Source: Bacteriovoracaceae bacterium (lineage in GTDB: Bacteria; Bdellovibrionota; Bacteriovoracia; Bacteriovoracales; Bacteriovoracaceae). Taken from it: DNA of 17,562 nucleotides. The notes beneath the pieces were generated by a model that was given only the letters and a program-made list of their open reading frames with translations, was not told the DNA's origin and made no database searches. The position numbers and the translations under genes are program-made. The stretch is taken from positions 1-17,562 of the forward strand of contig JBFGZE010000073.1 in NCBI GenBank assembly GCA_041586955.1, in the 5' to 3' direction. Shown one piece after another: positions 1 through 15,984 of the stretch (positions within the stretch are counted from its first letter, which is position 1; the number at the start of each line of letters is the position of its first letter).

Positions 1-246
1 GGCGGAGGAAGTGGCGGTGCCATTCATATTATTGCCAATACTATCGATGGAACGACAGGTACCATTGCTAGTAATGGAGGAAATGGTGGTGATACTTCCT
101 ATGATAGCGGTGGTGGCTCCGGCGGAAGGGTCTCTCTTATTTATACGACCGATAGTTTTATCGGAGGTATTCAAAATTCTCCTATTCAATGTCTTGGAGG
201 ATGGGGAGATACGGCCGGTTCAAATGGCACGATTAATTTTAATTAA
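1..246 (+). CDS. C-terminal fragment of a glycine-rich (GGGSGG-motif) protein, probably a large surface/secreted protein; 5'-truncated
   Basis: Frame 1 is open from base 1 to TAA 244-246: GGGSGGAIHIIANTIDGTTGTIASNGGNGGDTSYDSGGGSGGRVSLIY...CLGGWGDTAGSNGTINFN*. Repeated GGGSGG plus beta-strand motifs. Not in the ORF track because it lacks a start codon. Confidence 0.8.
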   Translation, partial: GGGSGGAIHIIANTIDGTTGTIASNGGNGGDTSYDSGGGSGGRVSLIYTTDSFIGGIQNSPIQCLGGWGDTAGSNGTINFN

Positions 247-549: not shown

Positions 550-2007
550 ATGATGGAATCCACACAGGAAAAGGCCTTCTCACCACTCAAAGTATTTTTA
601 CTTTTAAGCGACCTCAAAGAGGCGAAAAAAATTGCCAAGGTCTTTCGTGAAATAGGTGTCCTACCCAGTGTCTTTGAAAATTTGGAAGATTTTTGGAATA
701 TCACTTTAACGGAAGTGCCAGCTTTGGCCCTCGTTGATGGGGAGTGCTTAGAAGACGGTAGTTATAATCTCGCTCGCCACCCCATGGTGAGAAAAGAGCA
801 ACTCCCATTGGCAATTTATCACGCCGATGGCCTTCCTTCAGAAGATCATTTATCAACTAGAATCTTTCACCTCGGTGATTTATTCCGTCATGGAGATTAC
901 CACTCTTCTTTACGCTCGCTTCTAAAGCGAGTTAATCGCTTTCGTCAATTGGACAAACAAGTCGAAGAATTATCCGGTCGTACGACCAAGCGCGACTTCC
1001 AAATGACTAAGATTTTGCAAACCTCTGAAAATATTAAAGAGCGTGAACATTATCATATTCTCCTTAAAAATATTTGTAATCGTTTTGATTTACATCAAGA
1101 AATGGATGACTTTTATCAAGTGATGACAGAAGTTTTTGATTCCATGGAAGAGGTGACGGATTTTTCTGTTCTCGAATTATCTTTCAATGGACAAAAATTA
1201 GTGTCGCCGAAAATGATCTCAGCAAAATTTCGTGAGATTCCTTCTTTGTGGTTGGGACAGACCTGTCAAAATGGAATTGAATTCTTTGCCCAAAATATGG
1301 CCTCCCAGGTGGCCCTTGATATGTTTGGGGGGAATCAAATGACTCTTTTTATTCGCGGTCGCTTTGATGGCCCCGAAAAAATGATATTTTTAAAATTAAA
1401 TGATCAAGAACTCTTGGGCCACCTTGATTGGGAGTTTTTTGAGAAGTATTTAAGTGGTGTTTACACTCAGATGAGCTGGCGCGGCAACCGTATCGGTGAA
1501 ATTACTGGCCAGGTTCTTAATTCTTGGGACCTCTTCTCCCTGATGGATCAAGTTGCGATGGATCGTTTTCACCTCGATCCTGAAAAACCTCATCGTAACC
1601 TCTCTCTTATTAATGTGGATTTTTCACCATTGATGGAATTGATTAAAGAAACCGGTTGTCGTTTTTATTGGAAATCCTTTTATCATGATTTCGTCACTCG
1701 TTTTCAACGCACCAAAGAGGAAAATATCTCGACCTGTGCCTATACTCCGGAGCATTTAGGTTTTATTGTGGATGAGGAAAATGAAGATCACGTTTTTTAC
1801 GCTCTGAAAACATTTTCTCATCGCTTTCCTTTTTGGCGTTATTTTGATGATGCAGACCTGGTTCTTACACGCAATATTCGCCCGGAAATTGAAGTCATTC
1901 CTTTTTCTATTGATTCCATCTGGCGCCATTTGTCAGGGGAGTTACGGCAATTTCGCGTGGGGAAAAGGAGCATTGGTAAATTAAACCCTTCCGTTCCAAC
2001 GGTTTAA
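550..2007 (+). CDS. Hypothetical signalling protein: N-terminal receiver-like domain, coiled coil, possible degenerate GGDEF-like C-terminus
   Basis: 485 aa ORF. The N-terminus has a REC-like beta/alpha pattern (KVFLLLSD...ALALVD). Heptad-like segment around aa 120-165. NLSLINVDF resembles the first strand of GGDEF domains, but there is no GG[DE]EF motif. Domain calls are inference. Confidence 0.6.
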   Translation: MMESTQEKAFSPLKVFLLLSDLKEAKKIAKVFREIGVLPSVFENLEDFWNITLTEVPALALVDGECLEDGSYNLARHPMVRKEQLPLAIYHADGLPSEDHLSTRIFHLGDLFRHGDYHSSLRSLLKRVNRFRQLDKQVEELSGRTTKRDFQMTKILQTSENIKEREHYHILLKNICNRFDLHQEMDDFYQVMTEVFDSMEEVTDFSVLELSFNGQKLVSPKMISAKFREIPSLWLGQTCQNGIEFFAQNMASQVALDMFGGNQMTLFIRGRFDGPEKMIFLKLNDQELLGHLDWEFFEKYLSGVYTQMSWRGNRIGEITGQVLNSWDLFSLMDQVAMDRFHLDPEKPHRNLSLINVDFSPLMELIKETGCRFYWKSFYHDFVTRFQRTKEENISTCAYTPEHLGFIVDEENEDHVFYALKTFSHRFPFWRYFDDADLVLTRNIRPEIEVIPFSIDSIWRHLSGELRQFRVGKRSIGKLNPSVPTV

Positions 2008-3162: not shown

Positions 3163-3963
3163 ATGACCAAGGTCAATCAGTATGTGATTCAATGGACTGA
3201 AAATCTAGGTAACTCTATTTTAGAGGGACTCTCAGGCCTTGGTGATATTACCAATCATGCTTTAAAGTTTTTTTATTGGATGGTACGGCCACCTTACCGG
3301 CTTCATTTGTTATTTGAGCAACTATATTTTATTGGCAATAAAAGTATTTTTATCATCGCTCTCAGTGGCTCCTTCACTGGCATGGTGATGGCCTATCAAA
3401 CATATTTTGGTTTTAAGCTTATCTCAGTTGATTCCTTGGTTGGCCCGGTAACAAGTTTAACCTTGGCCAAAGAATTAGCGCCGGTTTTAACGGGTTTGAT
3501 TGTGGCCGGTCGTGCCGGCGCGGCGATGGCAGCGCAAATAGGCACAATGAAAGTGACAGAACAAGTGGACGCACTTGAAGTAATGGGAATTAGCTCCATT
3601 CAATTTTTGGCGGTACCGCGAATTATCGCCGCAACGATTGCCTTGCCAATGCTATCTATCCTCTTTCTTTTTATTGGCAATGTTGGCTCTTATCTCGTGG
3701 GAACTAAGGCCTTGGGGATTGATGAATCCATGTACTTTGCCAAGCTTGGCGAATTAATGTTTTTAGAAGATATTTGGATGGGCATTATTAAATCGGTCTT
3801 TTTTGGATTCACTATTGGTGTTGTGGGAACCTATTATGGCTTTAATGTTACCAAAGGGGCAGAGGGTGTTGGTAAGGGCACCAATCTAAGTGTGGTATGG
3901 GGAATGATTTTAGTTTTAATTCTCGATTATTTTATTACTTCCTTTTTAGTGCATATTCTTTAG
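3163..3963 (+). CDS. mlaE: MlaE-family ABC transporter permease
   Basis: KELAPVLTGLIVAGRAGAAMAAQIGTMKVTEQVDALEVMG, VPRIIA, GAEGVG; multiple TM segments. Confidence 0.95.
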   Translation: MTKVNQYVIQWTENLGNSILEGLSGLGDITNHALKFFYWMVRPPYRLHLLFEQLYFIGNKSIFIIALSGSFTGMVMAYQTYFGFKLISVDSLVGPVTSLTLAKELAPVLTGLIVAGRAGAAMAAQIGTMKVTEQVDALEVMGISSIQFLAVPRIIAATIALPMLSILFLFIGNVGSYLVGTKALGIDESMYFAKLGELMFLEDIWMGIIKSVFFGFTIGVVGTYYGFNVTKGAEGVGKGTNLSVVWGMILVLILDYFITSFLVHIL

Positions 3964-3969
3964 GTGATG

Positions 3970-4722
3970 ATGATGGAAGCACAGAGTTATGCAGTTGAAA
4001 TTAATAATATCGTCAAGAGATTCGCTGATCATGTCGTTTTGAAAAATTTAGATTTCAATATTCCTGAAGGTAAAATAACGACCATTTTGGGCTTTTCTGG
4101 TGCTGGAAAGTCGACCTTGCTCAAGCATATTTTAGGCCTGATCAAGCCCACCGAGGGTGAAATTGTAGTATTAGGCAAAAATCTTAATCATTTAAGTGAA
4201 ATAGAATTGCGGGAGTTTCGCCAAAATTTTGGCATGCTTTTCCAATATGCCGCTCTTTTTGATTCAAAAACCTCTTTTGAAAATGTCGCTTTTCCATTAA
4301 GAGAATTCACTGATATGGATGAATTTCAAATAAGGGATCGGGTCGAGGGACTTTTGACCTCGGTAGGCATTATTCCTGAGGCCTTCGATAAATTGCCATC
4401 AGAATTATCTGGAGGCATGCGTAAAAGAGTAGGGTTAGCTCGTGCGTTGGCCCTCAAACCAAAAATTATGCTGTATGATGAGCCGACAACTGGTTTGGAT
4501 CCGATTACAACTAAAATGGTCAATGATTTAATTGTTGATACAGCGAAACGACATCAAGATATACAAATGACATCAATTATTATTAGTCATGATGTGAAAG
4601 CGACCCTAGAAATTTCCGACTATGTGGCGTTTTTGGATCATGGTAGAATTATTGAATACTTACCTGCTAAAGAATTTGCGAAGTCTGACCATGAGTTAGT
4701 GAAGCAATTTATTCATTTATAG
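3970..4722 (+). CDS. mlaF: MlaF-family ABC transporter ATPase (start may be 3967, 3970 or 3973)
   Basis: Walker A GFSGAGKS, Q-loop LFQYAALFDS, signature LSGGMRKRVGLARA, Walker B MLYDEP, H-loop ISHD; lies between mlaE and the MCE gene. Confidence 0.95.
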   Translation: MMEAQSYAVEINNIVKRFADHVVLKNLDFNIPEGKITTILGFSGAGKSTLLKHILGLIKPTEGEIVVLGKNLNHLSEIELREFRQNFGMLFQYAALFDSKTSFENVAFPLREFTDMDEFQIRDRVEGLLTSVGIIPEAFDKLPSELSGGMRKRVGLARALALKPKIMLYDEPTTGLDPITTKMVNDLIVDTAKRHQDIQMTSIIISHDVKATLEISDYVAFLDHGRIIEYLPAKEFAKSDHELVKQFIHL

Positions 4723-4743: not shown

Positions 4744-6114
4744 ATGAATGAATTACGAGTAGGGATATTGGCGTTGGCCACAATTGCGTCCGTTATTTTT
4801 ATGTCCCTAAAAGTAACGACAAACCAATCTGGCTTTGGTGATTATATTACTTATCGCACTATTATTCGTGACGCGTCGGGTATTTTTCCCAAAACCTCGC
4901 TTAAAGTTGCTGGTATTAATGCTGGTCGTATTAAAACCATTGAATTGGTGGAAAATGCAGCTTATTTAACAATCGAGATTTTAAGCCGAGTGACGGTAAC
5001 AAAGGGCTCCGTTCTTTCCATCAAGTCGGTGGGCTTTCTTGGAGATAAGTACCTGGAGATCATTATAGGCCCAGGCAACGAAAGGCTCGAAGAAAATGGT
5101 TTCATTCCCGCCCAGGAAGGGGGAGGTGTTGAAGACCTAATGAAAGACGCATCGCAAGTTCTTAAAGATGTGAGAGTGATTGTTTCCAATATTAAAGAAA
5201 CGATGGCCCCTGAAGGTCGTGAACCACCACTAAGGAAAATTCTTAATGATGTGAAGCTCATGGCCGCTAATGCCAGAGAAGCTTCTGATTCTCTCCACAA
5301 GGTGATTGTCGGCAATGAAAAACGACTCGAGAAAATGGTAAAAAACTTTGAAGAAGTATCTGAGCGCTTGGCCTACCATGTGAATAATAATAATAAAGAA
5401 AGCGCGATGTCCGACATTAAAGAGATCTTGGCCAATGCTAAGGAAATGACCAGTGATATGAAAGAGCTGATGGATCATGTGAAAAAGGGTCGCGGAACTG
5501 TCGGTAAGCTCATAGTTGAAGATGAAATTGCAGATGAAGTCCAGCATACCTTGGCCTCGGTTCAAAAGATTGTTGGCAAGGTCGATGCGATTCGTACAGA
5601 ATTGGGATTATTTACGGGGGCCAATACCGTTTATGGAGCTGAAACGAACCTTGGCCTACGTATCTTTCCTTCTCCTGAGCGTTTTTATGAGGTGGGGATT
5701 ACCACTTCAGAATTTGGTCCGGAAAAAGAAAAGCATACGACGACGACTATTAATGGTGTCTCTAATACAGAGGTTCGCACAGTAAAAGATAAAAATAGTT
5801 TTAACTTTAATGTTCAATTGGGCCGTAAAATTCAAAATTGGGTTTTCCGTGGTGGTCTAATTGAATCAAGTGGTGGTCTAGGCTTTGATTATGAGCGTTC
5901 AGACTGGGGAAGTAAATTTTCTCTCGATGTTTATGATTATCGGGATGACATTGGCATTAATTTACGATTTGGAACTGAAGTCCAATTGTGGAATGTTTTC
6001 TATGGCAAAGTCGCTGTAGAAGATATGATTGAAGATAGTCGTAGTGCAACAATTAGTGCAGGTCTTAAGTTTAGTGACGAGGACCTAAAAGGATTATTGG
6101 GATTCTTTCTGTGA
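4744..6114 (+). CDS. mlaD: Long MlaD/MCE-domain protein with helical stalk and beta-rich C-terminal domain
   Basis: N-terminal TM anchor (ELRVGILAL...), MCE motifs (DASGI..KTSLKVAGINAGRI, GFLGDKYLEI), helical region aa ~130-285 with GTVGKL, then alternating amphipathic beta-strands. Confidence 0.92.
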   Translation: MNELRVGILALATIASVIFMSLKVTTNQSGFGDYITYRTIIRDASGIFPKTSLKVAGINAGRIKTIELVENAAYLTIEILSRVTVTKGSVLSIKSVGFLGDKYLEIIIGPGNERLEENGFIPAQEGGGVEDLMKDASQVLKDVRVIVSNIKETMAPEGREPPLRKILNDVKLMAANAREASDSLHKVIVGNEKRLEKMVKNFEEVSERLAYHVNNNNKESAMSDIKEILANAKEMTSDMKELMDHVKKGRGTVGKLIVEDEIADEVQHTLASVQKIVGKVDAIRTELGLFTGANTVYGAETNLGLRIFPSPERFYEVGITTSEFGPEKEKHTTTTINGVSNTEVRTVKDKNSFNFNVQLGRKIQNWVFRGGLIESSGGLGFDYERSDWGSKFSLDVYDYRDDIGINLRFGTEVQLWNVFYGKVAVEDMIEDSRSATISAGLKFSDEDLKGLLGFFL

Positions 6115-7031
6115 AAAAAGAATGGCTAATTAAAAACTCCAATCATGAAATTATCGGTCCACTTAGTCGGGACCAAGTAATTGCTATGATCGACGGTGAT
6201 AAATTAGTAGCAGAAGATGAATTACTAAAGGCCAATGGCTTTTGGTTTTGGATGCATGAAAAAGATTTATTGCAACGGTTTCTCTATGATAACGAGCCGC
6301 AGGGCTTTAATCCAATTTCAGAGGCAGAGGATGTTCTCACCGCTAATCTCACCAATGAGGAAGCAGGTATCGGCCCGCGACCTGATCTCTTTATTAACGA
6401 ATTAAAAAATGACGATGAGATGACTATCGAGCATTCCACTGTTCCTGGGCCCAACGATTTGGAATATCCTAACCCAGAAGATTTCATTGATATGCAAATT
6501 GAAGATGAAGATATCACCTTATCTGAAGATGCGACAGGCCTATTTGAGCAATTCCACCGAGGTGAAAAGGTGGATCTTAGAGAGGTTGAGGAGGGCCAGG
6601 GCAGTGAGGGGATATTACCTGAAGGCGCTGATCTGGAGTTTCCGGACCCCAGTTTACAACTAGACCTTAATGTTGATGAAATAATCCCTGAGTCTCCTGA
6701 GATTCTGGGCCCAGATGAATCCGACACCGACGATGTTTTTCAGGCAAAAAATAGCAATTATACCGACCCCACTTCCCCTCAAGTCAAAATGACTTCAGCT
6801 GGAGATTTGCAGGAGATAAAGAAGAAGGTAGAGATGAATGCCGAAAACAAGGACTCTTTCTCAAAGGTGATGATCATTGTGTTATTAATGATCGGTTTTC
6901 TTTTCTGGTCTATCTTCTTCTATTATAAAATTGTCCTTAACCGCCCTATTTTGAGTCAGATTTCACTTCCTGGAATTGGCACAGCTTATGCTCAGGTGGT
7001 TTCACCATCGCTTAAAAAAAAAAATTTTTAG
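6111..7031 (+). CDS. GYF_2-like N-terminal domain + acidic linker + single TM protein; 5' part of a probable frameshifted gene
   Basis: GTG start overlaps the mlaD stop (GTGA). N-terminus WLIK...IIGPLSRDQVIAMI...L..EDEL...GFW resembles GYF_2/DUF4339. D/E/P-rich linker, TM aa 253-272. Ends LKKKNF* across the A11 run. Confidence 0.75.
   Translation: MKKEWLIKNSNHEIIGPLSRDQVIAMIDGDKLVAEDELLKANGFWFWMHEKDLLQRFLYDNEPQGFNPISEAEDVLTANLTNEEAGIGPRPDLFINELKNDDEMTIEHSTVPGPNDLEYPNPEDFIDMQIEDEDITLSEDATGLFEQFHRGEKVDLREVEEGQGSEGILPEGADLEFPDPSLQLDLNVDEIIPESPEILGPDESDTDDVFQAKNSNYTDPTSPQVKMTSAGDLQEIKKKVEMNAENKDSFSKVMIIVLLMIGFLFWSIFFYYKIVLNRPILSQISLPGIGTAYAQVVSPSLKKKNF
7014..7029 (+). other. A11-T5 slippery tract; candidate -1 frameshift / transcriptional slippage site
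   Basis: 11 A at 7014-7024 then T5. The -1 frame has TAA at 7013-7015 and is then open to 8284; frame 0 stops at TAG 7029-7031. Confidence 0.6.
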
Positions 7032-8284
7032 GTCTGCCATTACTTGAAATTGATAATATTCTCGTTCGGCCTCAGGTTGAAATGCTGGGTTTTGATTATC
7101 GCAATATCGAATTTCCTGAAAAAGTTGATTGCCAAAAGGCAAAACCTTTTAATCTCTCTTATGCTCTTGTTGTCGCTCATATTAAAGGTTTTCAAAAACC
7201 CCCTGAAACGAGTATCGAATGTGTGAACTTCCTTGGGCAAGAGCATTTTAAGTTATTAGAATACTTTAAGCTTGCCCCTCAAACTGATGAAGAGGCGAAA
7301 AGATTTTTTAAAAAAAATAAATTCTCTAAACTTAAAAGAGACAAATTAATGGCCTGGCGTCAGCTCAAGTCTGATTTCTTTTATCCGCAAGAATTATTAG
7401 ATAAATTACGGCACTACCAAACATTTATCATTAAAGATATGGACAAAGAAATCGTTAAATCCACACAGCGGAGAATTCTTAATATTATAAGGCCCAGCAC
7501 GGAGGACCTCATACAAAATATTGCTTTTCTTAATGTCGCTATGAGCACGAATAATCAAACATGGGCCTTAAATAGTGTTGATAAAATCATTTTAAGTACC
7601 CCTTTAGCACCGCTTGTCGGACACCTCGATATTGTCGGTATGGAGAAAAAGGAAAAGGAGCTATGGGAAAAAATTATCTATCGCTCCGTTTTGGGTTTTA
7701 AAAAGTTCTATGGTGATGATCCCCATACTTCATTTTTAGCGGACTACCTTTTACCTTATTTACCCCGTAATGAGGAAGATAAATGGCGCCATGAATTTGG
7801 CGCTAATTGGTCATTGGGTGAAATTCGTAATCTTTATAAAGGTTGGACCAATGGTATTCGTATTGCTCCTTTATGGTATCGCCAATTATCGACTCGAACT
7901 AGTGCCGTGGAAATTCAGGCCTTTCTTAATACTGCTTACCAAGAAAAGCGAAGGGATGAATATACTTGGCGTGAATTATGGTTATTCGATGCTTTTACCC
8001 CCGATAGTATATTGACCAAACAAAAAGTCGGAAAAAAATTGGCCGAAATGATTAATTCCGATAGACCTTTACAGGTCTTAACTGCTCTTCATGGATTGGA
8101 AAATCCTCAGATGGCCAAAGAAATGGCCTTATGGAATGATAAATTGAAGGCCCCTAAAAATGATGTTTTAAAGGATATTTTTAGAGGCTTTCTGGACAAG
8201 GGGCAAATGGTACATTTCTCTCTTTATAATTTAATCCTTCTCGGTGAAAACGACCCGGAGTTATTATGGTGGCTAGTACTTTAA
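7016..8284 (+). CDS. Helical hypothetical protein; 3' part of a probable frameshifted gene (ORF-track ATG at 7082)
   Basis: Open frame from 7016: KKKFLGLPLLEIDNILVRPQVE-MLGFDY... to TAA 8282-8284. Mostly amphipathic helices, only two Cys, no signal peptide of its own. Confidence 0.7.
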   Translation, partial: KKKFLGLPLLEIDNILVRPQVEMLGFDYRNIEFPEKVDCQKAKPFNLSYALVVAHIKGFQKPPETSIECVNFLGQEHFKLLEYFKLAPQTDEEAKRFFKKNKFSKLKRDKLMAWRQLKSDFFYPQELLDKLRHYQTFIIKDMDKEIVKSTQRRILNIIRPSTEDLIQNIAFLNVAMSTNNQTWALNSVDKIILSTPLAPLVGHLDIVGMEKKEKELWEKIIYRSVLGFKKFYGDDPHTSFLADYLLPYLPRNEEDKWRHEFGANWSLGEIRNLYKGWTNGIRIAPLWYRQLSTRTSAVEIQAFLNTAYQEKRRDEYTWRELWLFDAFTPDSILTKQKVGKKLAEMINSDRPLQVLTALHGLENPQMAKEMALWNDKLKAPKNDVLKDIFRGFLDKGQMVHFSLYNLILLGENDPELLWWLVL

Positions 8285-9608: not shown

Positions 9609-11666
9609 ATGACTTCAAAAACACAAGAATACGACATTCCTTATTATAAAGACTTTATCGCTCCCGCCTTTATTGAGGAGGCCTTGAAAACCATGGAAGA
9701 TGTTCCTGGAATTGAAGGCCTTAAGGTTCAGGCCAATTTGCGCCAACGATTTGGCCATATTGAGACACAGCAGGCATTGCAATTTGTCTGTACTCTATAT
9801 CAAAAGGTTTCGAATGATTTAAACAAAGTTCTTGACCAAAGGGCCATCGACCGCGCTTTTATCGACCAGCAAACGAAAGAATGCGTAAGAGCGAATAGCG
9901 CTTCCGGCATAGACTATTTATCAGCGGAATATAAGACCGCAATCGGCCGTAAAGATGACAATGGCCGGATTGTCATGGGCCCTTTAGAAACTAAGTGTGA
10001 AGCTGATTGGAAGGTGGAGATCCCTGAATTTTTACAAGGGGAACAAGTGACATTATTTGGGCCACCGGATACCAAACGCATGTCTATCAATGCCATGAAT
10101 GCGATCCACCGCAAACTCCCCAATGAACCCGATATTATTGCTCGGCTAATTGAAGAGACTAATGAATTTCCCAAATGGGGAGCGGATAATGAGGATTCAA
10201 AAACACCGCTGATGAGTGATTTTCTCTTGGCCTGCGAGAATTTAATTGAATGTTTTAATGGCGAACTTAAATTTAACGATGAAAGATCTGGCAAGCAATA
10301 CCGTCTGGAAAAAGAGCGCCTCTCTCAACCGATTAAACGTTTTCCTGGCCTGGCCATTCCCGATAATGCCCATATTTTAAATGGCTCACCTCTGCCTTTG
10401 CATATATACGATTTTGCTATGCATATGTTTCATAATTGGGACAAACCTAAGGCCCTGTGTTTTTATGTTCCGAAATTAGAAAATGAAGAAGAGGCAGCTT
10501 ATCTTCAATCTATGATTAATATTTGTGAAAAAATGCTTAAGGAACTTCACCCCAAATATGAAATGGGCCAAGTGAAGCTCTATATTGTTTTTGAAGGACC
10601 TCGCGCCATTTTTCGTATTCGAGAAATTGCCAAGGCCTTGCGTCCGTACTTTGTGGGTGGTTCTTTGGGGTGGCACGATTTTCTTGCCGCAACAGCACGC
10701 TTTCTTAAACATGACCCCAATTATCGAATTCCAGTGAAGGCCGACCCTAATATTGTTATTAAGCATATTCGTGAAAGTCATAAAATTCTCGAGCGTTCCC
10801 TAGCACCGCTTGGTGCCATTAAACTTGGTGGGATGTATGGTGTTCTCTATGAGAATGGCAATAAGGAATCCTTTCAAATTTCGATGATTGGTTATATTAA
10901 AGATGTGGTCACTCAACTGAAACGCAATCTTGATGGCTTTTGGGTGGCGCACCCGGATTTTGTGCGTATCGGTTTGGCCTTGGTTCAGGCCTACCGCCGC
11001 AAGGAGAAGGATTCATCTGACTCAGCGTTAAAAGAAGTCATCTGCGGCCTTATTACTGATCCTGAAGATCAAAAAAGCCTGATGGCCTTTGTGGAAGGAG
11101 ACGATATTGAAGGATTGGATGAATCCGATCCTATGTACCTTCGAGGAGTGATCGCTGCTAGTTTGAAAGAGTCAGATGTCATTAAAAACAATGATCCAGA
11201 GGAAGTTCGTTATAATATTTTTCAAGCGTTGCAATATATCGCTGATTGGTTAGGTGGCAATGGTTGTGTCGCCCTACCGGCAACTTTACGTGATCGTAAC
11301 GGTAAGGAAATTCGCGTGAGGATTATGGACGATTTGGCCACTACTGAGCGCTCCCGTTGGGAAGTGTGGGCGGAAATCCATCATGGCCGTATCTCTATGG
11401 AAGAATTTGAGCGTATTTTGGCCGAAGAAATCCAGTTTATCAAAGAGGATCAAAATAGCCCGACTCGCCAAGTTCAAGTGAAATGGAGTGGGGAAGCAGA
11501 AAAGTGGTACCCCATTGCCATTAAAATTTTGCGGAAATTGATGACGGATACCAGGCCGGTTGAATTTGTTCCAGAGCTTCTTTTACCCTTTTTATTAGAC
11601 TTTATCCGTGAGGCGAAAGACCCGTGGGCACAGGCGCAGAAGTACGCCCCAGAAAAATATTGTTAA
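9609..11666 (+). CDS. Malate synthase (divergent, MSA-like motifs)
   Basis: ADNEDS, KRFPG, FYVPKLE, VFEG, GWHDF, DGFWVAHP, WLGGNGCV and IMDDLATTERSRWEVW correspond to malate synthase A motifs DFEDS, RPRG, YLPK, LIET, GRWDY, DGTWVAHP, GNGCV and MEDAATAEISR. Confidence 0.88.
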   Translation: MTSKTQEYDIPYYKDFIAPAFIEEALKTMEDVPGIEGLKVQANLRQRFGHIETQQALQFVCTLYQKVSNDLNKVLDQRAIDRAFIDQQTKECVRANSASGIDYLSAEYKTAIGRKDDNGRIVMGPLETKCEADWKVEIPEFLQGEQVTLFGPPDTKRMSINAMNAIHRKLPNEPDIIARLIEETNEFPKWGADNEDSKTPLMSDFLLACENLIECFNGELKFNDERSGKQYRLEKERLSQPIKRFPGLAIPDNAHILNGSPLPLHIYDFAMHMFHNWDKPKALCFYVPKLENEEEAAYLQSMINICEKMLKELHPKYEMGQVKLYIVFEGPRAIFRIREIAKALRPYFVGGSLGWHDFLAATARFLKHDPNYRIPVKADPNIVIKHIRESHKILERSLAPLGAIKLGGMYGVLYENGNKESFQISMIGYIKDVVTQLKRNLDGFWVAHPDFVRIGLALVQAYRRKEKDSSDSALKEVICGLITDPEDQKSLMAFVEGDDIEGLDESDPMYLRGVIAASLKESDVIKNNDPEEVRYNIFQALQYIADWLGGNGCVALPATLRDRNGKEIRVRIMDDLATTERSRWEVWAEIHHGRISMEEFERILAEEIQFIKEDQNSPTRQVQVKWSGEAEKWYPIAIKILRKLMTDTRPVEFVPELLLPFLLDFIREAKDPWAQAQKYAPEKYC

Positions 11667-11672
11667 ATTTTT

Positions 11673-12185
11673 TTATTCTTGCAGAGTCGCCATAATTGTA
11701 TAATTCCCAATTATGGGAATATTTTTCTTTTTAAGCCGGACAAAAACCCAGCCTGCTGCTGGCACGTTGGGATGATAATAGGCGGTCGTTTCCGTGCGTC
11801 CACTTTGGGAAATAATTTTTATGACATGACAATCGCGATATCCTTTATAGTCTCTTTGCCCCATATGGAATATGGTCGCTTTACCAACTTTCATTTGTCC
11901 CTTAAGCGCCAAATCTTCGTAACCTCTTTCTGTCAAAAAACTTGCTGGTAATATACGTGTATGTTCCCCTTTGAGATATTTAGCAGGAACTGGGGCCAAT
12001 AATTTTTTCTTGATACTATACTTAATGACGATTTGAGCGAGTTCGACTTGCTCTTGTTCTTGTTCTTGAGCGAAGACTTTAACCCAGCCTCCTTTGTGAA
12101 ACTTTCCCTTGTGGACATTATAATTGGCAGTTTCACCGGCAAAAACCGATAATGAGACAAAAAGCAAAAGAATTGTTTTTAACAT
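11673..12185 (-). CDS. Basic secreted hypothetical protein (paralog 1), 170 aa
   Basis: Start reassigned to ATG 12185 (AGGAG upstream); signal peptide MLKTILLLFVSLSVFA; clear paralog of 13665-14165. Confidence 0.85.
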   Translation of the reverse strand: MLKTILLLFVSLSVFAGETANYNVHKGKFHKGGWVKVFAQEQEQEQVELAQIVIKYSIKKKLLAPVPAKYLKGEHTRILPASFLTERGYEDLALKGQMKVGKATIFHMGQRDYKGYRDCHVIKIISQSGRTETTAYYHPNVPAAGWVFVRLKKKNIPIIGNYTIMATLQE

Positions 12186-12206
12186 AAAAAATCTCCTCGA
12201 GATTCT

Positions 12207-12242
12207 ATAGTAAAATGAGCTGCGTCGGACATTCAAGAAAAA
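12207..12242 (-). promoter_or_regulatory. Putative sigma70 promoter of paralog 1
   Basis: Minus strand TTTTTC-TTGAAT (12236-12231), N18, TACTAT (12212-12207). Confidence 0.55.
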
Positions 12243-12898: not shown

Positions 12899-13270
12899 AT
12901 GGGGCCTATTAAAATATTTCTTCTTTATTTTATAATATTTTTTGGTGGCTGTTGGGCGACTTTTTTTTTGCAAGAATATTTTGGAATTGGGGTTGTCCTG
13001 GCCTCTGCCTTGGTGGGATTGGCCGGAACGATTATTCCTTTTCCTCAAAAAAATAAGAATAGCTACCAGGCCATTATCTACACGGCATCTTTTGCAGGTA
13101 TGAGCTCATTTGAGCTTGTAGAAAACATTTTTCATATCGCCCTTGTATCCATTTTTGGCGCCCTTATTTTCATAGGCCTTAAAAATTACTTCATCGGGCT
13201 AGGTGGAAAAATGGGGTTTACAGCTTTTCTTTCTATTATCGCATTTTCTCTTTTGAAGGTGGTATTATGA
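12899..13270 (+). CDS. Small 5-TM hypothetical membrane protein A
   Basis: Highly hydrophobic; motifs ASALVGL, YTASFAGMS, GLGGKMG; overlaps the next gene (ATGA). Confidence 0.8.
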   Translation: MGPIKIFLLYFIIFFGGCWATFFLQEYFGIGVVLASALVGLAGTIIPFPQKNKNSYQAIIYTASFAGMSSFELVENIFHIALVSIFGALIFIGLKNYFIGLGGKMGFTAFLSIIAFSLLKVVL

Positions 13271-13650
13271 GTTTATGGCAAATCATTCTATTATCAATTA
13301 TTGGCGCCAATCTCACCCATTATATCGCTCATAAAAATAATATTGGTGCGATACGGGCCTCCGCTGGTTTAACTATCCTTTTTGTCTTTATCAATAATTT
13401 CTTTCTTTTTAGCCTACAGGCCCAGGCCATCTTTTTTGGGGCGACCTTTGTGGGGATGGCCAGCAAAAAACGCATGGGTCATAGGTCTATTAGCTTGGCC
13501 TCTTTTATTTATTCGCTGGTTATCTTTTATCTAATTGGGTTTGCCAAAGGCATGGGAGGAGCTTTGGGAACGAGTGCCTTTATCGGCTGTAGCACTACTG
13601 CTTTTTTTATCTATTTTTACAAGAAAAAAGAATTCACTTTATTTATTTAA
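13267..13650 (+). CDS. Small 5-TM hypothetical membrane protein B (paralog of A)
   Basis: Motifs RASAGLT, FGATFVGMAS and GMGGALG align with protein A. Confidence 0.8.
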   Translation: MSLWQIILLSIIGANLTHYIAHKNNIGAIRASAGLTILFVFINNFFLFSLQAQAIFFGATFVGMASKKRMGHRSISLASFIYSLVIFYLIGFAKGMGGALGTSAFIGCSTTAFFIYFYKKKEFTLFI

Positions 13651-13664
13651 AAAGCTTATATTGG

Positions 13665-14165
13665 TCACTCTCTATATTTTGCTTCCATTGTATAAGATTT
13701 AAGAAATCGTATGTTTTTAATTTTAATTTTGACATAAACCCAGCCCGCCGCCGGAATATTGGGGTGGTAAAAAGCGGTGAGTTCTGATTTTCCATTTGTA
13801 GGTAATATTTTGATGACATGACAATTGCGATAGGAATGGTAATCCTTTCGACCGAGGTATTTAATACGGGCCTTGGGAAGATTCATCACCCCTTTTTTTG
13901 CTAACTCATCATAACCACGCTCTTGCATCAACTTGAGGGGGATGGCGCGAGAGTAAACTCTACTTAAATATTTCCGAGGTACGGGAACGAAGGCCTTCTT
14001 CTTTACTTTATAATTAATTTTGACGATGGCATGGTGCTTTGTTTCTTGGACCGATATTTTGATTTTACCGCCCTTATGAAATTTTCCCGGACGGATCTTA
14101 TAATGAGCGACTTCGGAGGCGAAGAGAGAGGATGTGAATAATAAAAGGCAGAGCAGCTTTATCAT
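13665..14165 (-). CDS. Basic secreted hypothetical protein (paralog 2), 166 aa
   Basis: Start reassigned to ATG 14165 (AAGGAG upstream); signal peptide MIKLLCLLLFTSSLFA; shares GKFHKGG, PVP.KYL, ERGY, CHVIKI and YHPN.PAAGWV with paralog 1. Confidence 0.85.
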   Translation of the reverse strand: MIKLLCLLLFTSSLFASEVAHYKIRPGKFHKGGKIKISVQETKHHAIVKINYKVKKKAFVPVPRKYLSRVYSRAIPLKLMQERGYDELAKKGVMNLPKARIKYLGRKDYHSYRNCHVIKILPTNGKSELTAFYHPNIPAAGWVYVKIKIKNIRFLKSYTMEAKYRE

Positions 14166-14187
14166 GGACGACTCCTTTAAAGGGGCC

Positions 14188-14222
14188 ATCATAGCGATTT
14201 ATGGGGTTGATCTCAAGAAAAA
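14188..14222 (-). promoter_or_regulatory. Putative sigma70 promoter of paralog 2
   Basis: Minus strand TTTTTC-TTGAGA (14216-14211), N17, TATGAT (14193-14188). Confidence 0.6.
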
Positions 14223-14226
14223 TAAA

Positions 14227-15984
14227 TTAGGAGACTTTTTTGGCATCCTCTGCAGCTTTTTTTTGCTTTTCTAAAAACTCTTTTTGTCGGGCCTTGACTT
14301 CGGCCTCTTCCGCCTCTTTTTTCAACTTCTTGGGAAGGTAAATCATTTCGTTCACAAACCGGCGCAGGCGGGCGCGCTCTTTTTCCTGAACACCATGATT
14401 GACTCCTAGGTATTGGTAACCTCCTTTTATTTTAGTGACTTTTCCTCCTACTTCCGGAATAACACTGACAAATATATTGGCAGGGTCCTTGAGGTGGAAT
14501 ACTGAATGCATGGGAATTTCTTGTTCGGTTGTGAAGATGGTATAAGATTCAGATATCTCTATAATTTTTGCTTTAATAATAAATTCAGCATTCGATTCAT
14601 CAGACTTTTTATCGAGAAAAATTTTGGGGATAATTAACTTTTTTTCCTCTTCATCTTGTTGATCAAATTCAGTTTGGCGCTTTTTATTAAAGGCATCGCA
14701 AAGATGGAGAACTTTTTCAAAATTAAATTGATGGCCATCACTTATAATACGGTCGTAATTGAGTAAGTTTTTGAGCTCATTTGAATTTAATTTTGCATTG
14801 AAGACCAAGATATAGGGGTTATAATCGGGGATGCTATCTATTTTGCTGATGATTAAACGTAAGGCCTGATCCCCATAGATTTGGGAAGCTTGCTCTTTTT
14901 CCAAAGTACTCGTTTCTGATTCATCTTTTCTATTCTCCTCCTCTTTTTTCTGCTCTTCGGTCTCATCCTTATACTGGTAGGCAATGAGGCCAGGCATGAC
15001 TTCGGTGATGACCGAGCCCTTAGGATCGATTTCTTTAGAAAAGCGGATTGAATTGGCATAACCATCAAGAGGTTTATCCGCCACCTTTAAAATGGTCATG
15101 GTGTGGTCCAGAACCAGGATGCGATCGTTAATAAGGGTGGGGGGAGTATAGCGACTTTTAAACCAAGTTAGATATTTGCTTTTTACAATATCGCCATTGA
15201 TTTTTATTTGGGGTTGACCAGATTTTTGAGCATCTACAGCAGACTTTTCTTGAGTACTCGCGTCTTTTCGCTTTCTTTCAAGATCGGGGACAATACCTTC
15301 TTCTTCTAAATATTCATGCTTAAAATTAATGGTCAAATCATGACCATGTTTAAAGGTATAATATAAATTACTTGCAATACAATTTTCGACGGTAAAAAAT
15401 TTTACGTCAAAAGTCGAATGGAACTGGGTTTTAAGAATTATCTCCTGGCCATTAGCGAAGAGGAGATTGTCCTCTATATGAATTGAAGTGGGGGTGATAT
15501 AACCAATTTTGACGAGTGACCCAAAATCAACACTATAGTCGATAGGGATTTTCGCGCTGGCGACTTGAGGTAATTCGAGTGAATTTTTTTGTGATAATAA
15601 TTGGGAGTGATAGAGAATATCATCAAATTCACCGGATTTGATATGATTGATAAATACGCCAGTGGTGTTACTTTCTTTAATCATGGCGGGGTCTGCAAGA
15701 TAACCCCAAAGCCCAATCACTGCATCATTATAAGGAAAGCAGCGACGAATAAGTCGTGCTAGCGTCATGAGTTTATGGGGGTCGGTGGAATAGTCAATAA
15801 AGATGACATCTGGTTCAATCGCAGCGATATCGATGATCAGGTTTTGAAATAACTTATCTTCTTTTTTATAAATCTGAGTAAAGTCGAATTGTTGGTCGGG
15901 GTATTTCTTGGCGAATCGTTCCTGAATGGATGACCAGTATTTTTCATCTTGACCAATAAATAAGATTCGCTTGGAAGCATCCAT
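14227..15984 (-). CDS. Hypothetical protein with receiver-like and PilZ-like segments
   Basis: 585 aa. N-terminal RILFIGQD...PDVIFIDY is REC-like. C-terminal AKIIEISESY...YLGVNHG..EKERARLRRFV resembles a PilZ barrel with its terminal helix. Charged C-terminal tail. Confidence 0.65.
   Translation of the reverse strand: MDASKRILFIGQDEKYWSSIQERFAKKYPDQQFDFTQIYKKEDKLFQNLIIDIAAIEPDVIFIDYSTDPHKLMTLARLIRRCFPYNDAVIGLWGYLADPAMIKESNTTGVFINHIKSGEFDDILYHSQLLSQKNSLELPQVASAKIPIDYSVDFGSLVKIGYITPTSIHIEDNLLFANGQEIILKTQFHSTFDVKFFTVENCIASNLYYTFKHGHDLTINFKHEYLEEEGIVPDLERKRKDASTQEKSAVDAQKSGQPQIKINGDIVKSKYLTWFKSRYTPPTLINDRILVLDHTMTILKVADKPLDGYANSIRFSKEIDPKGSVITEVMPGLIAYQYKDETEEQKKEEENRKDESETSTLEKEQASQIYGDQALRLIISKIDSIPDYNPYILVFNAKLNSNELKNLLNYDRIISDGHQFNFEKVLHLCDAFNKKRQTEFDQQDEEEKKLIIPKIFLDKKSDESNAEFIIKAKIIEISESYTIFTTEQEIPMHSVFHLKDPANIFVSVIPEVGGKVTKIKGGYQYLGVNHGVQEKERARLRRFVNEMIYLPKKLKKEAEEAEVKARQKEFLEKQKKAAEDAKKVS

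What the first reader, a model, noticed from the sequence alone, without database searches (positions are those of the whole stretch)
6111..8284. Candidate programmed frameshift/slippage gene: A11 tract joins a GYF-like membrane anchor to a 420-aa exported domain
Seen: frame 0 (from 6111) ends CTT AAA AAA AAA AAT TTT TAG. The -1 frame is closed by TAA at 7013-7015 and opens at 7016, running without a stop to 8284. The two frames therefore overlap only over the A11-T5 tract. One extra A, or a -1 ribosomal slip, gives ...SLKKKKFLGLPLLEIDNILVRPQVEMLGF..., a 724-aa protein. The downstream ORF has no signal peptide, only a weak AGGT before ATG 7082, and a Cys pair (VDCQK, IECVN) that would suit the periplasm, which it reaches only as a fusion behind the TM helix. 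Known: A runs of 9 or more promote RNA-polymerase slippage, and A_AAA_AAN heptamers promote -1 frameshifting. Inference: the locus makes short (306 aa) and long (724 aa) isoforms sharing the cytoplasmic domain, or is phase-variable. A homopolymer sequencing error is a real alternative.
Basis: partly seen in the sequence, partly recalled or inferred. Interest (0 to 1): 0.85.

Follow-up and report, generated by a model that had tools for sequence, protein, structure and literature searches.

The report
Conserved poly-A frameshift site in membrane-protein gene
A run of eleven A's splits one gene for a membrane-anchored protein into two reading frames, and because distant relatives carry the same break at the same Lys-Lys-Lys spot, it looks like a deliberate frameshift site and not a sequencing error.

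Summary
ORF1 (6111-7031, 306 aa) ends 5 bases after an A11 tract (7014-7024). The -1 frame is closed by TAA 7013-7015 and then open to 8284.

Both halves belong to one protein family. Single-ORF relatives of 628-839 aa carry the ORF1 domains and the ORF2 domain in one frame.

The break is not a one-off:
- 16 of 18 stand-alone relatives of ORF1 end the same way: A-x-A-Q, a few residues, KKK, 1-9 residues, stop. Most are only 30-40% identical to each other.
- They include Halobacteriovorax marinus SJ, on a 3.44-Mb contig.
- The break recurs in independent assemblies of the same lineages.
- About 65 of 90 relatives of ORF2 are called without any export signal.
- Fused relatives mostly have only KK at this spot.

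In the window, codon usage, homology and an AlphaFold model (pLDDT 90.5) all show that the 22 codons before ATG 7082 are coding.

Best reading: a conserved recoding site (RNA-polymerase slippage and/or a -1 ribosomal shift) giving 306-aa and 724-aa products.

This is a new member of a known kind.

The parts
6111..7031 (+). ORF1, 0 frame, 306 aa (short product): GYF-like domain, acidic disordered linker, TM helix, A-Y-A-Q, KKK, NF, stop.
   Evidence: The GTG start overlaps the stop of the upstream MlaD-like gene (GTGA, 6111-6114). The N-terminus aligns from residue 1 with relatives.
6111..6290 (+). Cytoplasmic GYF-like domain (residues 1-60).
   Evidence: The AlphaFold2 model has pLDDT above 90 over residues 1-60, with strand-strand-helix-strand-strand-helix order. 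The 10 best Foldseek PDB matches are all GYF domains, with E 0.014-0.13 and TM 0.50-0.66 on the target. Pfam GYF_2 is only sub-threshold, in 6 of 11 relatives, and is not hit by the window protein.
6849..6935 (+). Single transmembrane helix (residues 247-275).
   Evidence: Helix 247-275 with pLDDT about 90. Hydropathy maximum at residue 253.
6984..6995 (+). A-Y-A-Q motif, a signal-peptidase-like A-x-A|Q site after the TM helix (inferred).
   Evidence: A294 is at least 90% conserved among 19 N-terminal ORFs. Relatives with only a signal peptide end that peptide with the same ..YAQ / ..FAQ motif.
7014..7024 (+). A11 tract, the proposed slippage / frameshift site (0 frame AAA AAA AAA AA-). It contains the heptamer A_AAA_AAA.
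   Evidence: It is the only KKK in the window encoded purely by AAA; the 6 other KKK all contain AAG.
7025..7031 (+). T5 run and the 0-frame stop TAG (7029-7031).
7013..7015 (+). TAA, the last stop of the -1 frame. It fixes the 5' limit of the shift window.
7016..7081 (+). 22 codons of the -1 frame upstream of the first ATG. They are coding and are reached only by a frame change.
   Evidence: The codon log-odds score of the 19 codons 7025-7081 is 5.34, against an in-frame mean of 4.89. Only 0.08% of off-frame windows and 2.9% of intergenic windows reach that score. BLASTP aligns these residues from the first one with residues 327 onwards of the in-frame relative P0069. AlphaFold2 places strands 10-12 and 15-22 here, in 10-residue blocks with mean pLDDT about 90.
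7082..8284 (+). Remainder of the C-terminal domain (400 aa from ATG 7082), an alpha-helical solenoid behind a small beta-sheet. It has an invariant Cys pair (7124-7138 VDCQK, 7214-7228 IECVN) and ends LWWLVL.
   Evidence: There is no Pfam or NCBIfam family and no solved structural relative.
4744..6114 (+). Upstream MlaD-like gene (context: mlaE 3163-3963, ABC ATPase 3964-4722, MlaD-like 4744-6114). Its stop overlaps the ORF1 start by 4 bases.

Best explanation
One gene for a bitopic inner-membrane protein is written in two frames and needs a frame change at the A11 tract to be read in full.

Protein layout: a cytoplasmic GYF-like domain, an acidic linker, one TM helix, and a periplasmic alpha-solenoid domain of about 420 aa.

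Standard decoding gives a 306-aa product, the anchor with a 31-residue periplasmic stub. The 724-aa product needs either a transcript with one extra A, made by RNA-polymerase slippage on the A11/T11 template, or a -1 ribosomal slip on A_AAA_AAA.

The out-of-frame arrangement is the conserved, selected state in a large part of the family (relatives named Halobacteriovorax, Bacteriovoracaceae, Bacteriovoracia, Bdellovibrio sp.). The site therefore sets a ratio of short to long product.

What is shown and what is inferred:
- Shown: the two frames, the one-protein homology, the recurrence of the break at KKK, and the coding nature of the pre-ATG codons.
- Inferred: that a frame change occurs at all, its efficiency, and its mechanism.

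I favour transcriptional slippage about 60:40 over ribosomal shifting. The tract is 11 long and no stimulatory RNA structure follows it.
For: (1) The two halves are one protein.
- An exhaustive HMMER search with the -1-frame product found 91 proteins at E<=0.001, self included.
- A script sorted the 90 non-self hits; I checked them by eye against the sequences. 10 carry the ORF1-type N-terminus (WLIRT..GP..GNG[YF]WF..FNPISEA), a TM helix and the C-domain in a single frame.
- P0069 (743 aa) matches ORF1 residues 1-80 at 43% identity. It matches the -1 product from its first residue: KKKFLGLPLLE against KKKFVELPSLD.

(2) The break is conserved.
- Of 18 non-self stand-alone N-terminal ORFs (253-444 aa), 16 end A-x-A-[QK], 2-12 residues, KKK, 1-9 residues, stop, as the window does.
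- Most of them are 30-40% identical to their nearest other N-ORF.
- The set includes H. marinus SJ CBW27556.1, on a 3,435,933-bp contig.

(3) The break is reproducible.
- In H. marinus, 3 of 4 cluster members are 362 aa with the same end.
- The P0105 cluster has 9 members, 8 of them 253 aa. All 6 that I fetched end KKKVFLSQS[R/L/H].
- P0097 was seen on 11 contigs.

(4) The downstream half stays intact without its own export signal.
- About 65 of 90 relatives have no hydrophobic N-terminus.
- Their called starts scatter from position -1 to 247 of the window protein.
- 21 retain the invariant Cys69 but start after the invariant Cys39.
- Some lie on contigs of 1.5-2.6 Mb.
- 12 other relatives carry a plain signal peptide, so the domain is an exported one.
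- P0039 reads SKKKNYFELNP, that is, the C-frame runs through the KKK.

(5) In-frame relatives avoid the tract. A K run of 3 or more after the TM helix occurs in 17 of 19 split forms against 3 of 13 fused forms, and only 2 of those 3 are at the junction (Fisher p = 2e-4, not corrected for relatedness).

(6) Evidence within the window.
- Codon usage is typical of coding sequence in the -1 frame right from the tract.
- The AlphaFold2 model (pLDDT 90.5, pTM 0.90) builds two strands from pre-ATG residues.
- The 6 other KKK in the window are all interrupted by AAG.
- No + strand promoter-like or terminator-like site lies between the ORFs.

(7) Hint at a -1 relation elsewhere. The last tail codon varies R/L/H in the P0105 cluster and P/Q in H. 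marinus. If these are single-base changes, they are second-position changes in the 0 frame. They would then be third-position changes of an NCN codon, hence silent, in the -1 frame only. This is my inference.

(8) Published efficiencies. Passages of PMC3711429 report poly-A cassettes in E. coli giving 63% (11 A), 40% (9 A) and 10% (7 A) frameshifted product. Passages of PMC5009743 report slippage on runs of 9 A/T and 12-50% corrected transcripts at poly(A) in endosymbionts.
Against: - No DNA of any relative was obtained. Whether their KKK are uninterrupted A runs, how long these are, and whether the downstream frame is always -1 are not shown.
- No reads, transcripts or peptides exist for this window.
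- KK is conserved at this place even in in-frame and signal-peptide relatives. A Lys-rich site in an AT-rich genome could simply be a recurrent mutational or error hotspot.
- One PacBio-based assembly, H. marinus BE01, has a further break at another KKK in this same gene. Such breaks can therefore arise without being programmed.
- 9 of the 16 supporting N-ORFs lie on contigs of 1.2-6.7 kb and could end at a contig end and not at a stop.
- No stimulatory RNA structure follows the tract (z = 0.14), and Rfam finds nothing.
- A Met lies just before the G[FY] motif in about 10 split relatives, which fits an independent start.
- The A11 tract by itself is not improbable.
Confidence: 0.68

Rival explanations
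1. Phase variation at DNA level. The A tract changes length by slipped-strand mispairing during replication, which switches the periplasmic domain on (A12/A9) and off (A11) in a heritable, reversible way. No transcriptional or translational recoding is needed.
For: A homopolymer of 11 sits inside an envelope-protein gene. One close Halobacteriovorax-like relative, P0069, has KKKK in frame, as an 'on' variant would. Passages of PMC3711429 state that poly-A/T is slippery for DNA polymerase as well, and that many phase-variable genes encode exposed proteins.
Against: Assemblies of one lineage all show the same 'off' state at the junction. This holds for 3 of 3 H. marinus copies that reach it, all 6 fetched members of the P0105 cluster, and P0097/P0118. 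The 'off' state is shared by lineages only 30-40% identical. Among GYF-bearing forms with KKK or more at the junction, 17 are out of frame and 2 in frame. A free-running switch would give more in-frame copies, although the two searches differ in sensitivity.
Confidence: 0.12
2. Two separate genes with no recoding. ORF1 makes the GYF-TM protein. ORF2 is translated from ATG 7082, by its own weak SD or by re-initiation 50 bases after the ORF1 stop, as a 400-aa protein without a signal peptide.
For: ATG 7082 has a mid-range predicted SD pairing of -3.7 kcal/mol. About 10 split relatives have a Met within a few residues of the same position, at window positions 14-23. Gene callers report both ORFs as separate proteins.
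Against: The 22 codons upstream of the ATG score as coding, align with in-frame relatives and form two beta-strands of the confident model. In other relatives the first ATG lies 30-250 residues further in, and 21 would lose the invariant Cys39. The domain is exported in the fused and signal-peptide relatives, yet would be cytoplasmic here. The -1 frame opens exactly inside the tract.
Confidence: 0.09
3. A homopolymer miscall in this assembly (true length A12 or A9), or a recent inactivating 1-base deletion in this organism only.
For: No reads are available. Long homopolymers are error-prone. H. marinus BE01 shows an extra break at another KKK of the same gene. An in-frame KKKK relative exists (P0069).
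Against: The same break is the rule and not the exception among relatives, including on a 3.44-Mb contig of H. marinus SJ and in repeated independent assemblies. ORF2 shows no other damage and has full-length similarity to the family.
Confidence: 0.06

Closest known systems
dnaX of Thermus thermophilus, and the two-ORF dnaX genes with A7-A10 runs reported by Antonov et al. 2013 (passages of PMC3711429 and PMC5009743 read)
   Same: A run of 9 or more A inside a chromosomal gene. Polymerase slippage makes transcripts with extra A, so two products share an N-terminus. In the two-ORF dnaX genes the long product needs the frame change, as here.
   Different: The protein is unrelated. Here the frame change lies just past a TM helix and adds a whole periplasmic domain. 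Nothing has been measured for this gene.
E. coli dnaX -1 programmed ribosomal frameshift at A_AAA_AAG (passages of PMC5009743)
   Same: A lysine-codon heptamer and a -1 shift, giving a short and a long product from one gene.
   Different: In E. coli the shift gives the short product, and it uses an upstream SD-like element and a downstream stem-loop (recalled). Here the shift would give the long product, and no downstream structure is predicted.
Poly(A)-tract rescue of frameshifted genes in the endosymbionts Buchnera and Blochmannia (passage of PMC5009743)
   Same: AT-rich genome, genes out of frame at long poly(A), and 12-50% of transcripts corrected by slippage.
   Different: Those cases are read as tolerated decay in single lineages. 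Here the break is shared by lineages only 30-40% identical, and the downstream domain is conserved.
Bd0075 of Bdellovibrio bacteriovorus (PMC12034629, passages read)
   Same: A predatory-bacterium protein with a cytoplasmic GYF-like domain of about 80 residues, a TM helix and an extracytoplasmic helical-repeat region.
   Different: It is 965 aa in one ORF, has annotated TPRs, and no frame break is reported. Homology with the window protein was not tested, because its sequence was not in hand, and it was not among the hits.
GltJ of Myxococcus xanthus (PDB 7z3c; passages of PMC11135422)
   Same: A GYF domain in the cytosol, a single TM helix and a periplasmic part. It is a structural match to the window's N-domain (E 0.08, TM 0.52 on the target).
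   Different: GltJ also has a ZnR domain and a periplasmic TonB-C domain. It has no alpha-solenoid and no frame break. It belongs to a gliding-motility gene set, not to an mla-like one.

Membership tests
Programmed transcriptional realignment at a homopolymer (dnaX-Thermus type) | An uninterrupted A or T run of about 9 or more at the junction of the two frames. | tested here: met
   A11 at 7014-7024. The frames overlap only at 7016-7031.
Programmed transcriptional realignment at a homopolymer (dnaX-Thermus type) | The run and the frame break are conserved among orthologues. | tested here: inconclusive
   At protein level, KKK followed by a stop within 1-9 codons occurs in 16 of 18 non-self N-ORFs. 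At DNA level this was not tested, because both genome scans gave nothing usable.
Programmed transcriptional realignment at a homopolymer (dnaX-Thermus type) | Transcripts with extra bases, and both protein products. | not testable with these tools
   No RNA or protein data.
-1 programmed ribosomal frameshifting | A slippery heptamer X_XXY_YYZ in the 0 frame. | tested here: met
   A_AAA_AAA, for example 7016-7022 with 0-frame codons at 7017 and 7020.
-1 programmed ribosomal frameshifting | A stimulatory element, either a downstream stem-loop or pseudoknot or an upstream SD-like sequence. | tested here: not met
   The fold of 7025-7124 has z = 0.14, and 98 of 200 shuffles fold as well. There is no Rfam match. 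An upstream SD-like element was not examined separately.
Phase-variable contingency gene (slipped-strand mispairing) | Tract length, and so on/off state, differs among close isolates. | tested here: not met
   The same out-of-frame end is seen in 3 of 3 H. marinus copies that reach the junction, in 6 of 6 fetched P0105-cluster members, and in P0097/P0118. This is protein-level evidence only.
GYF domain (Pfam GYF_2, PF14237) | A match above the Pfam gathering score. | tested here: not met
   The window protein has no hit at E<=5. 6 of 11 relatives have sub-threshold hits (14-20 bits against a cut-off of 25.8) at residues about 5-49.
GYF domain (fold) | A small beta-beta-alpha-beta-beta domain superimposable on solved GYF domains. 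| tested here: met
   Residues 1-60 have pLDDT above 90. The best 10 of 10 PDB matches are GYF domains, with prob 0.96-1.00 and TM 0.50-0.66 on the target, although E is 0.014-0.13 and so above 0.001.
Mla lipid-transport system component | Homology to MlaB/C/D/E/F, or conserved linkage to mla genes in relatives. | not tested
   Only adjacency in this window is known: a 4-base overlap with the MlaD-like gene. No loci of relatives were obtained.

The most novel reading that the evidence does not exclude
A recoding site conserved across a whole group of predatory bacteria (Bacteriovoracia-like lineages). An A run placed just beyond the TM helix and a signal-peptidase-like A-x-A|Q site sets how many copies of a cytoplasmic GYF membrane anchor are extended by a periplasmic alpha-solenoid domain. 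The extension may then be cleaved off as a soluble periplasmic protein, because relatives with only a signal peptide start their mature form at the same Q. This would be a frameshift that decides the membrane topology and stoichiometry of an envelope protein next to an Mla-like lipid transporter. It would be maintained by selection for as long as these lineages have diverged to 30-40% identity.
Probability: 0.5. Interest if true: 0.75.

Novelty: new member of a known kind. Interest (0 to 1): 0.66.

Why it matters
Conserved recoding sites in bacterial chromosomal genes outside dnaX, prfB and mobile elements are few, and each is a natural experiment on how a fixed product ratio is encoded.

If real, this one has several uses:
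- It gives a new, easily assayed case, because Halobacteriovorax marinus is cultivable.
- It corrects the annotation of about 65 'hypothetical proteins' among the 90 relatives examined. These are in fact C-terminal halves.
- It shows that gene callers systematically split this family.
- It points to a GYF-TM-solenoid envelope protein in predatory bacteria whose dosage seems to matter.

It also shows that 'homopolymer error' should not be assumed when a break recurs across lineages.

Tried and rejected
DNA of relatives
- With A3 (6 sequences) it scanned genome contigs. 32 stretches matched the pattern and none was confirmed. This also suggests that the window's own genome is not in that collection.
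- My own degenerate pattern for the N-domain had 56 spacer bases instead of 57, so it was out of frame. Its 6 loci (L001-L006) are chance hits, and tblastn finds no E below 3.
Tract length and frame relation in relatives therefore stayed unchecked.

Family and fold look-ups
- Pfam and NCBIfam have no family for either ORF.
- The ESM Atlas gave a best score of 0.78, below the level of a usable lead.
- Foldseek of the C-domain gave a best E of 0.037 and TM of 0.24 or less, matching only generic armadillo/TPR-like solenoids.
- The word-index search with ORF2 found only itself.
- The 'longer' search with ORF1 found only P0093. The tool itself calls this weak evidence.

Signals around the site
- No downstream RNA structure.
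- No Rfam family in the window.
- No + strand promoter or terminator between the ORFs.
- SD strength at ATG 7082 is not informative.

Other points
- Back-translating the 0-frame tails of relatives to test -1 against +1 was considered and dropped. Codon degeneracy leaves no obligatory stops, so the test has no power. Only the two tail polymorphisms were used.
- Literature searches found no report of this site. The term pairs were 'transcriptional slippage' + Bdellovibrio, Halobacteriovorax + frameshift (only an unrelated integrase pseudogene), the two accession numbers of the H. marinus protein, and GeneTack + Bacteriovorax.
- Supplementary tables of PMC3711429 were not opened and could list a related cluster.

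Full report
**Observation**

- ORF1 starts at GTG 6111, overlapping the stop of the upstream MlaD-like gene by 4 bases. It ends CTT AAA AAA AAA AAT TTT TAG at 7031, giving 306 aa.
- The A run is 11 long (7014-7024) and is followed by T5.
- In the -1 frame the last stop is TAA 7013-7015. The frame is then open to 8284 (422 codons), with the first canonical start at ATG 7082.
- The only stretch where a ribosome or a transcript could pass from one frame to the other is 7016-7031, that is, the homopolymer itself.
- One extra A, or a -1 slip, gives a 724-aa product.
- An A11 is not improbable in this 40% GC window: 63 of 200 shuffles have one. The tract alone therefore proves nothing.

**The two halves are one protein**

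Neither ORF matches Pfam or NCBIfam, and the word-index search with the -1 product found only itself. The exhaustive HMMER search found 91 proteins at E<=0.001, 34 of them at E<=1e-10. I sorted the 90 non-self hits by script and by eye.
- 10 are long forms (582-839 aa). Their N-terminus is the ORF1 N-terminus (WLIRT..GP..GNG[YF]WF..QxFNPISEA). It is followed by an acidic linker with DLE[YF]P repeats, a TM helix, an A-x-A-Q motif and then the C-domain, all in one frame.
- 3 more (P0017, P0047, P0056) show the TM helix plus C-domain in one frame but are shorter at the N-terminus.
- 12 have a plain signal peptide ending ..YAQ/..FAQ directly before the C-domain.
- About 65 have no hydrophobic N-terminus at all.

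P0069 (743 aa) aligns with ORF1 residues 1-80 at 43% identity. It aligns with the -1 product from that product's very first residue: KKKFLGLPLLEIDN against KKKFVELPSLDTEF, residues 327-743. The fused reading is therefore the ancestral architecture.

**The break is conserved**

Searching with ORF1 among proteins of similar length gave 18 non-self hits of 253-444 aa.
- 16 of them end as the window does: A-x-A-[QK], 2-12 residues, KKK, a tail of 1-9 residues, then the end of the ORF. The exceptions are P0104 and P0111.
- Most are only 30-40% identical to their nearest other N-ORF. There are three small subgroups at about 60-70%.
- One is the 'putative membrane protein' CBW27556.1 of Halobacteriovorax marinus SJ, on a contig of 3,435,933 bp.
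- Two further H. marinus copies of the same 362-aa length end identically or with one changed residue.
- The P0105 cluster has 9 members from several sources, 8 of them 253 aa. All 6 that I fetched end KKKVFLSQS[R/L/H]. P0097 occurs on 11 contigs.
- By contrast, in-frame forms mostly have only KK at this place. A K run of 3 or more after the TM helix occurs in 17 of 19 split forms against 3 of 13 fused forms, and only P0069 and P0093 have it at the junction (Fisher p = 2e-4, not corrected for relatedness).

Caveats:
- 9 of the 16 supporting ORFs lie on contigs of 1.2-6.7 kb and could end with the contig.
- The 7 on contigs above 15 kb are P0097, P0099, P0100, P0105, P0107, P0109 and P0112.
- The H. 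marinus BE01 copy (a PacBio assembly polished with Illumina reads, per passages of PMC5760749) stops at an earlier KKK. Unprogrammed breaks at K runs therefore also occur.

**The downstream half is kept intact and starts before its ATG**
- The called starts of the signal-less relatives scatter from position -1 to 247 of the window protein, with small peaks at 21-23 and 49-52.
- Cys39 and Cys69 are invariant wherever the position is aligned (42 of 42 and 63 of 63). Yet 21 relatives have Cys69 and start after Cys39. Their true N-termini must lie upstream of the called start.
- Several such ORFs lie on contigs of 1.5-2.6 Mb, so they are not edge fragments.
- P0039 begins MGTRTRSKKKNYFELNP, so the C-frame reads through the KKK.
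- In the window, the 19 codons 7025-7081 score 5.34 in the -1 frame, against an in-frame mean of 4.89. Only 0.08% of off-frame windows and 2.9% of intergenic windows reach that value.
- The AlphaFold2 model built on 51 sequences (mean pLDDT 90.5, pTM 0.90) places strands 10-12 and 15-22 before Met23. They pair with strand 25-32.

**Hint at a -1 relation in relatives**

The last tail codon varies R/L/H in the P0105 cluster and P/Q in H. marinus. If these are single-base changes, they fall on the second codon position in the 0 frame. They would then fall on the third position of an NCN codon, and so be silent, in the -1 frame only. In the +1 frame they would be first-position changes. This is an inference from protein sequences, not a DNA result.

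**Mechanism**
- The tract contains A_AAA_AAA. It is also long enough for RNA-polymerase slippage.
- No structure follows it (z = 0.14), Rfam finds nothing, and no + strand promoter- or terminator-like site separates the ORFs.
- Passages of PMC3711429 report 63%, 40% and 10% frameshifted product for cassettes with 11, 9 and 7 A in E. coli. They also describe two-ORF dnaX genes with A7-A10.
- Passages of PMC5009743 report efficient slippage at 9 A/T and 12-50% corrected transcripts at poly(A) in endosymbionts.
- In the window the 6 other KKK all contain AAG, although AAA is the commoner Lys codon (267 against 124). Only the junction KKK is pure AAA. The numbers are small.
- I therefore favour transcriptional slippage, with ribosomal shifting as a possible contributor. 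Neither was measured.

**What the protein is**
- Residues 1-60 fold as a small beta-beta-alpha-beta-beta-alpha domain with pLDDT above 90. Its 10 best PDB matches are all GYF domains, including GltJ of Myxococcus xanthus (E 0.014-0.13, TM 0.50-0.66 on the target).
- Pfam GYF_2 is only sub-threshold, in 6 of 11 relatives.
- Residues 247-275 form the TM helix. The linker is predicted to be disordered.
- The C-domain is an alpha-solenoid with no solved relative (best E 0.037, TM 0.24 or less).
- The A-x-A-Q motif after the TM helix equals the end of the signal peptide in the signal-peptide-only relatives. The long product may therefore be cleaved there. This is an inference.
- The function is unknown. 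The gene follows an mlaE / ABC ATPase / MlaD-like set.
- Bd0075 of B. bacteriovorus has the same kind of architecture in one 965-aa ORF (passages of PMC12034629). Homology with it was not tested.

**Rivals**
- Phase variation fits the tract but not the uniform out-of-frame state within and between lineages.
- Two independent genes fits the Met near the same position in about 10 relatives and the mid-range SD at ATG 7082. It does not fit the coding pre-ATG codons, the scattered starts, the lost Cys, or an exported domain without a signal.
- A miscall in this assembly cannot be excluded without reads. It is unlikely, given that the same state is the rule in relatives.

**What stayed unchecked**

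No DNA of any relative was obtained.
- One search found nothing.
- One search was spoiled by my spacer miscount, and one search confirms its loci are chance hits.

Also unchecked were raw reads, transcripts and proteins, and the supplements of PMC3711429. My literature searches found no report of this site.

**Verdict**

It is a new member of a known kind, namely conserved recoding at a poly-A tract. Interest 0.66.

Noticed in passing
Protein P0115 (H. marinus BE01, ATH08854.1), compared with P0109: In this assembly the same gene stops 91 residues earlier, at another KKK (..EEPVKKKLT against ..EEPVKKKANVASS.. in strain SJ). This is a second break at a K run in the same gene. It is either an assembly error or a real strain difference.
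   Followed up: partly
window 6456-6470 and 6630-6644: There are two DLE[YF]P motifs in the disordered cytoplasmic linker (DLEYP, DLEFP). In the alignment of 19 N-ORFs, P112, D116, L117 and P120 are at least 90% conserved, and relatives carry 2-4 copies. They may be short linear binding motifs, perhaps for the protein's own GYF-like domain or for a partner.
   Followed up: no
window 6984-6995: The A-Y-A-Q after the TM helix matches the end of the cleavable signal peptide of relatives that lack the GYF-TM part (for example ..VYAQ, ..FAQ). The long product may be processed by signal peptidase.
   Followed up: no
window 7304-7317: A T6A8 run (TTTTTTAAAAAAAA) lies inside ORF2 and is read in frame as FFKKN. 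It is a second slippery-looking tract with no frame break.
   Followed up: no
window 12961-12969: A T9 run lies inside ORF 12899-13270 (123 aa, no family). It is the only other homopolymer of 9 or more in the window.
   Followed up: no
window 4744-6114: The MlaD-like protein is 456 aa. The MlaD domain covers only residues about 35-107, and a long extension follows with weak coiled-coil-type matches. Its stop overlaps the start of ORF1 (GTGA).
   Followed up: no
window 9609-11666: A 685-aa ORF matches the malate synthase TIM-barrel and C-terminal domains only modestly (E 1e-16 and 2e-11). It is a divergent malate-synthase-like enzyme.
   Followed up: no
window 550-2007, 11673-12236, 12899-13270, 13267-13650, 13665-14192, 14227-15984: Six further ORFs of 123-585 aa have no Pfam family at E<=0.01, and their NCBIfam hits are only far below the cut-offs.
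   Followed up: no
all annotated ORFs of the window: All 6 KKK outside the junction contain at least one AAG, although AAA is the preferred Lys codon (267 against 124). This suggests avoidance of pure A9 in coding sequence, but the numbers are small.
   Followed up: partly
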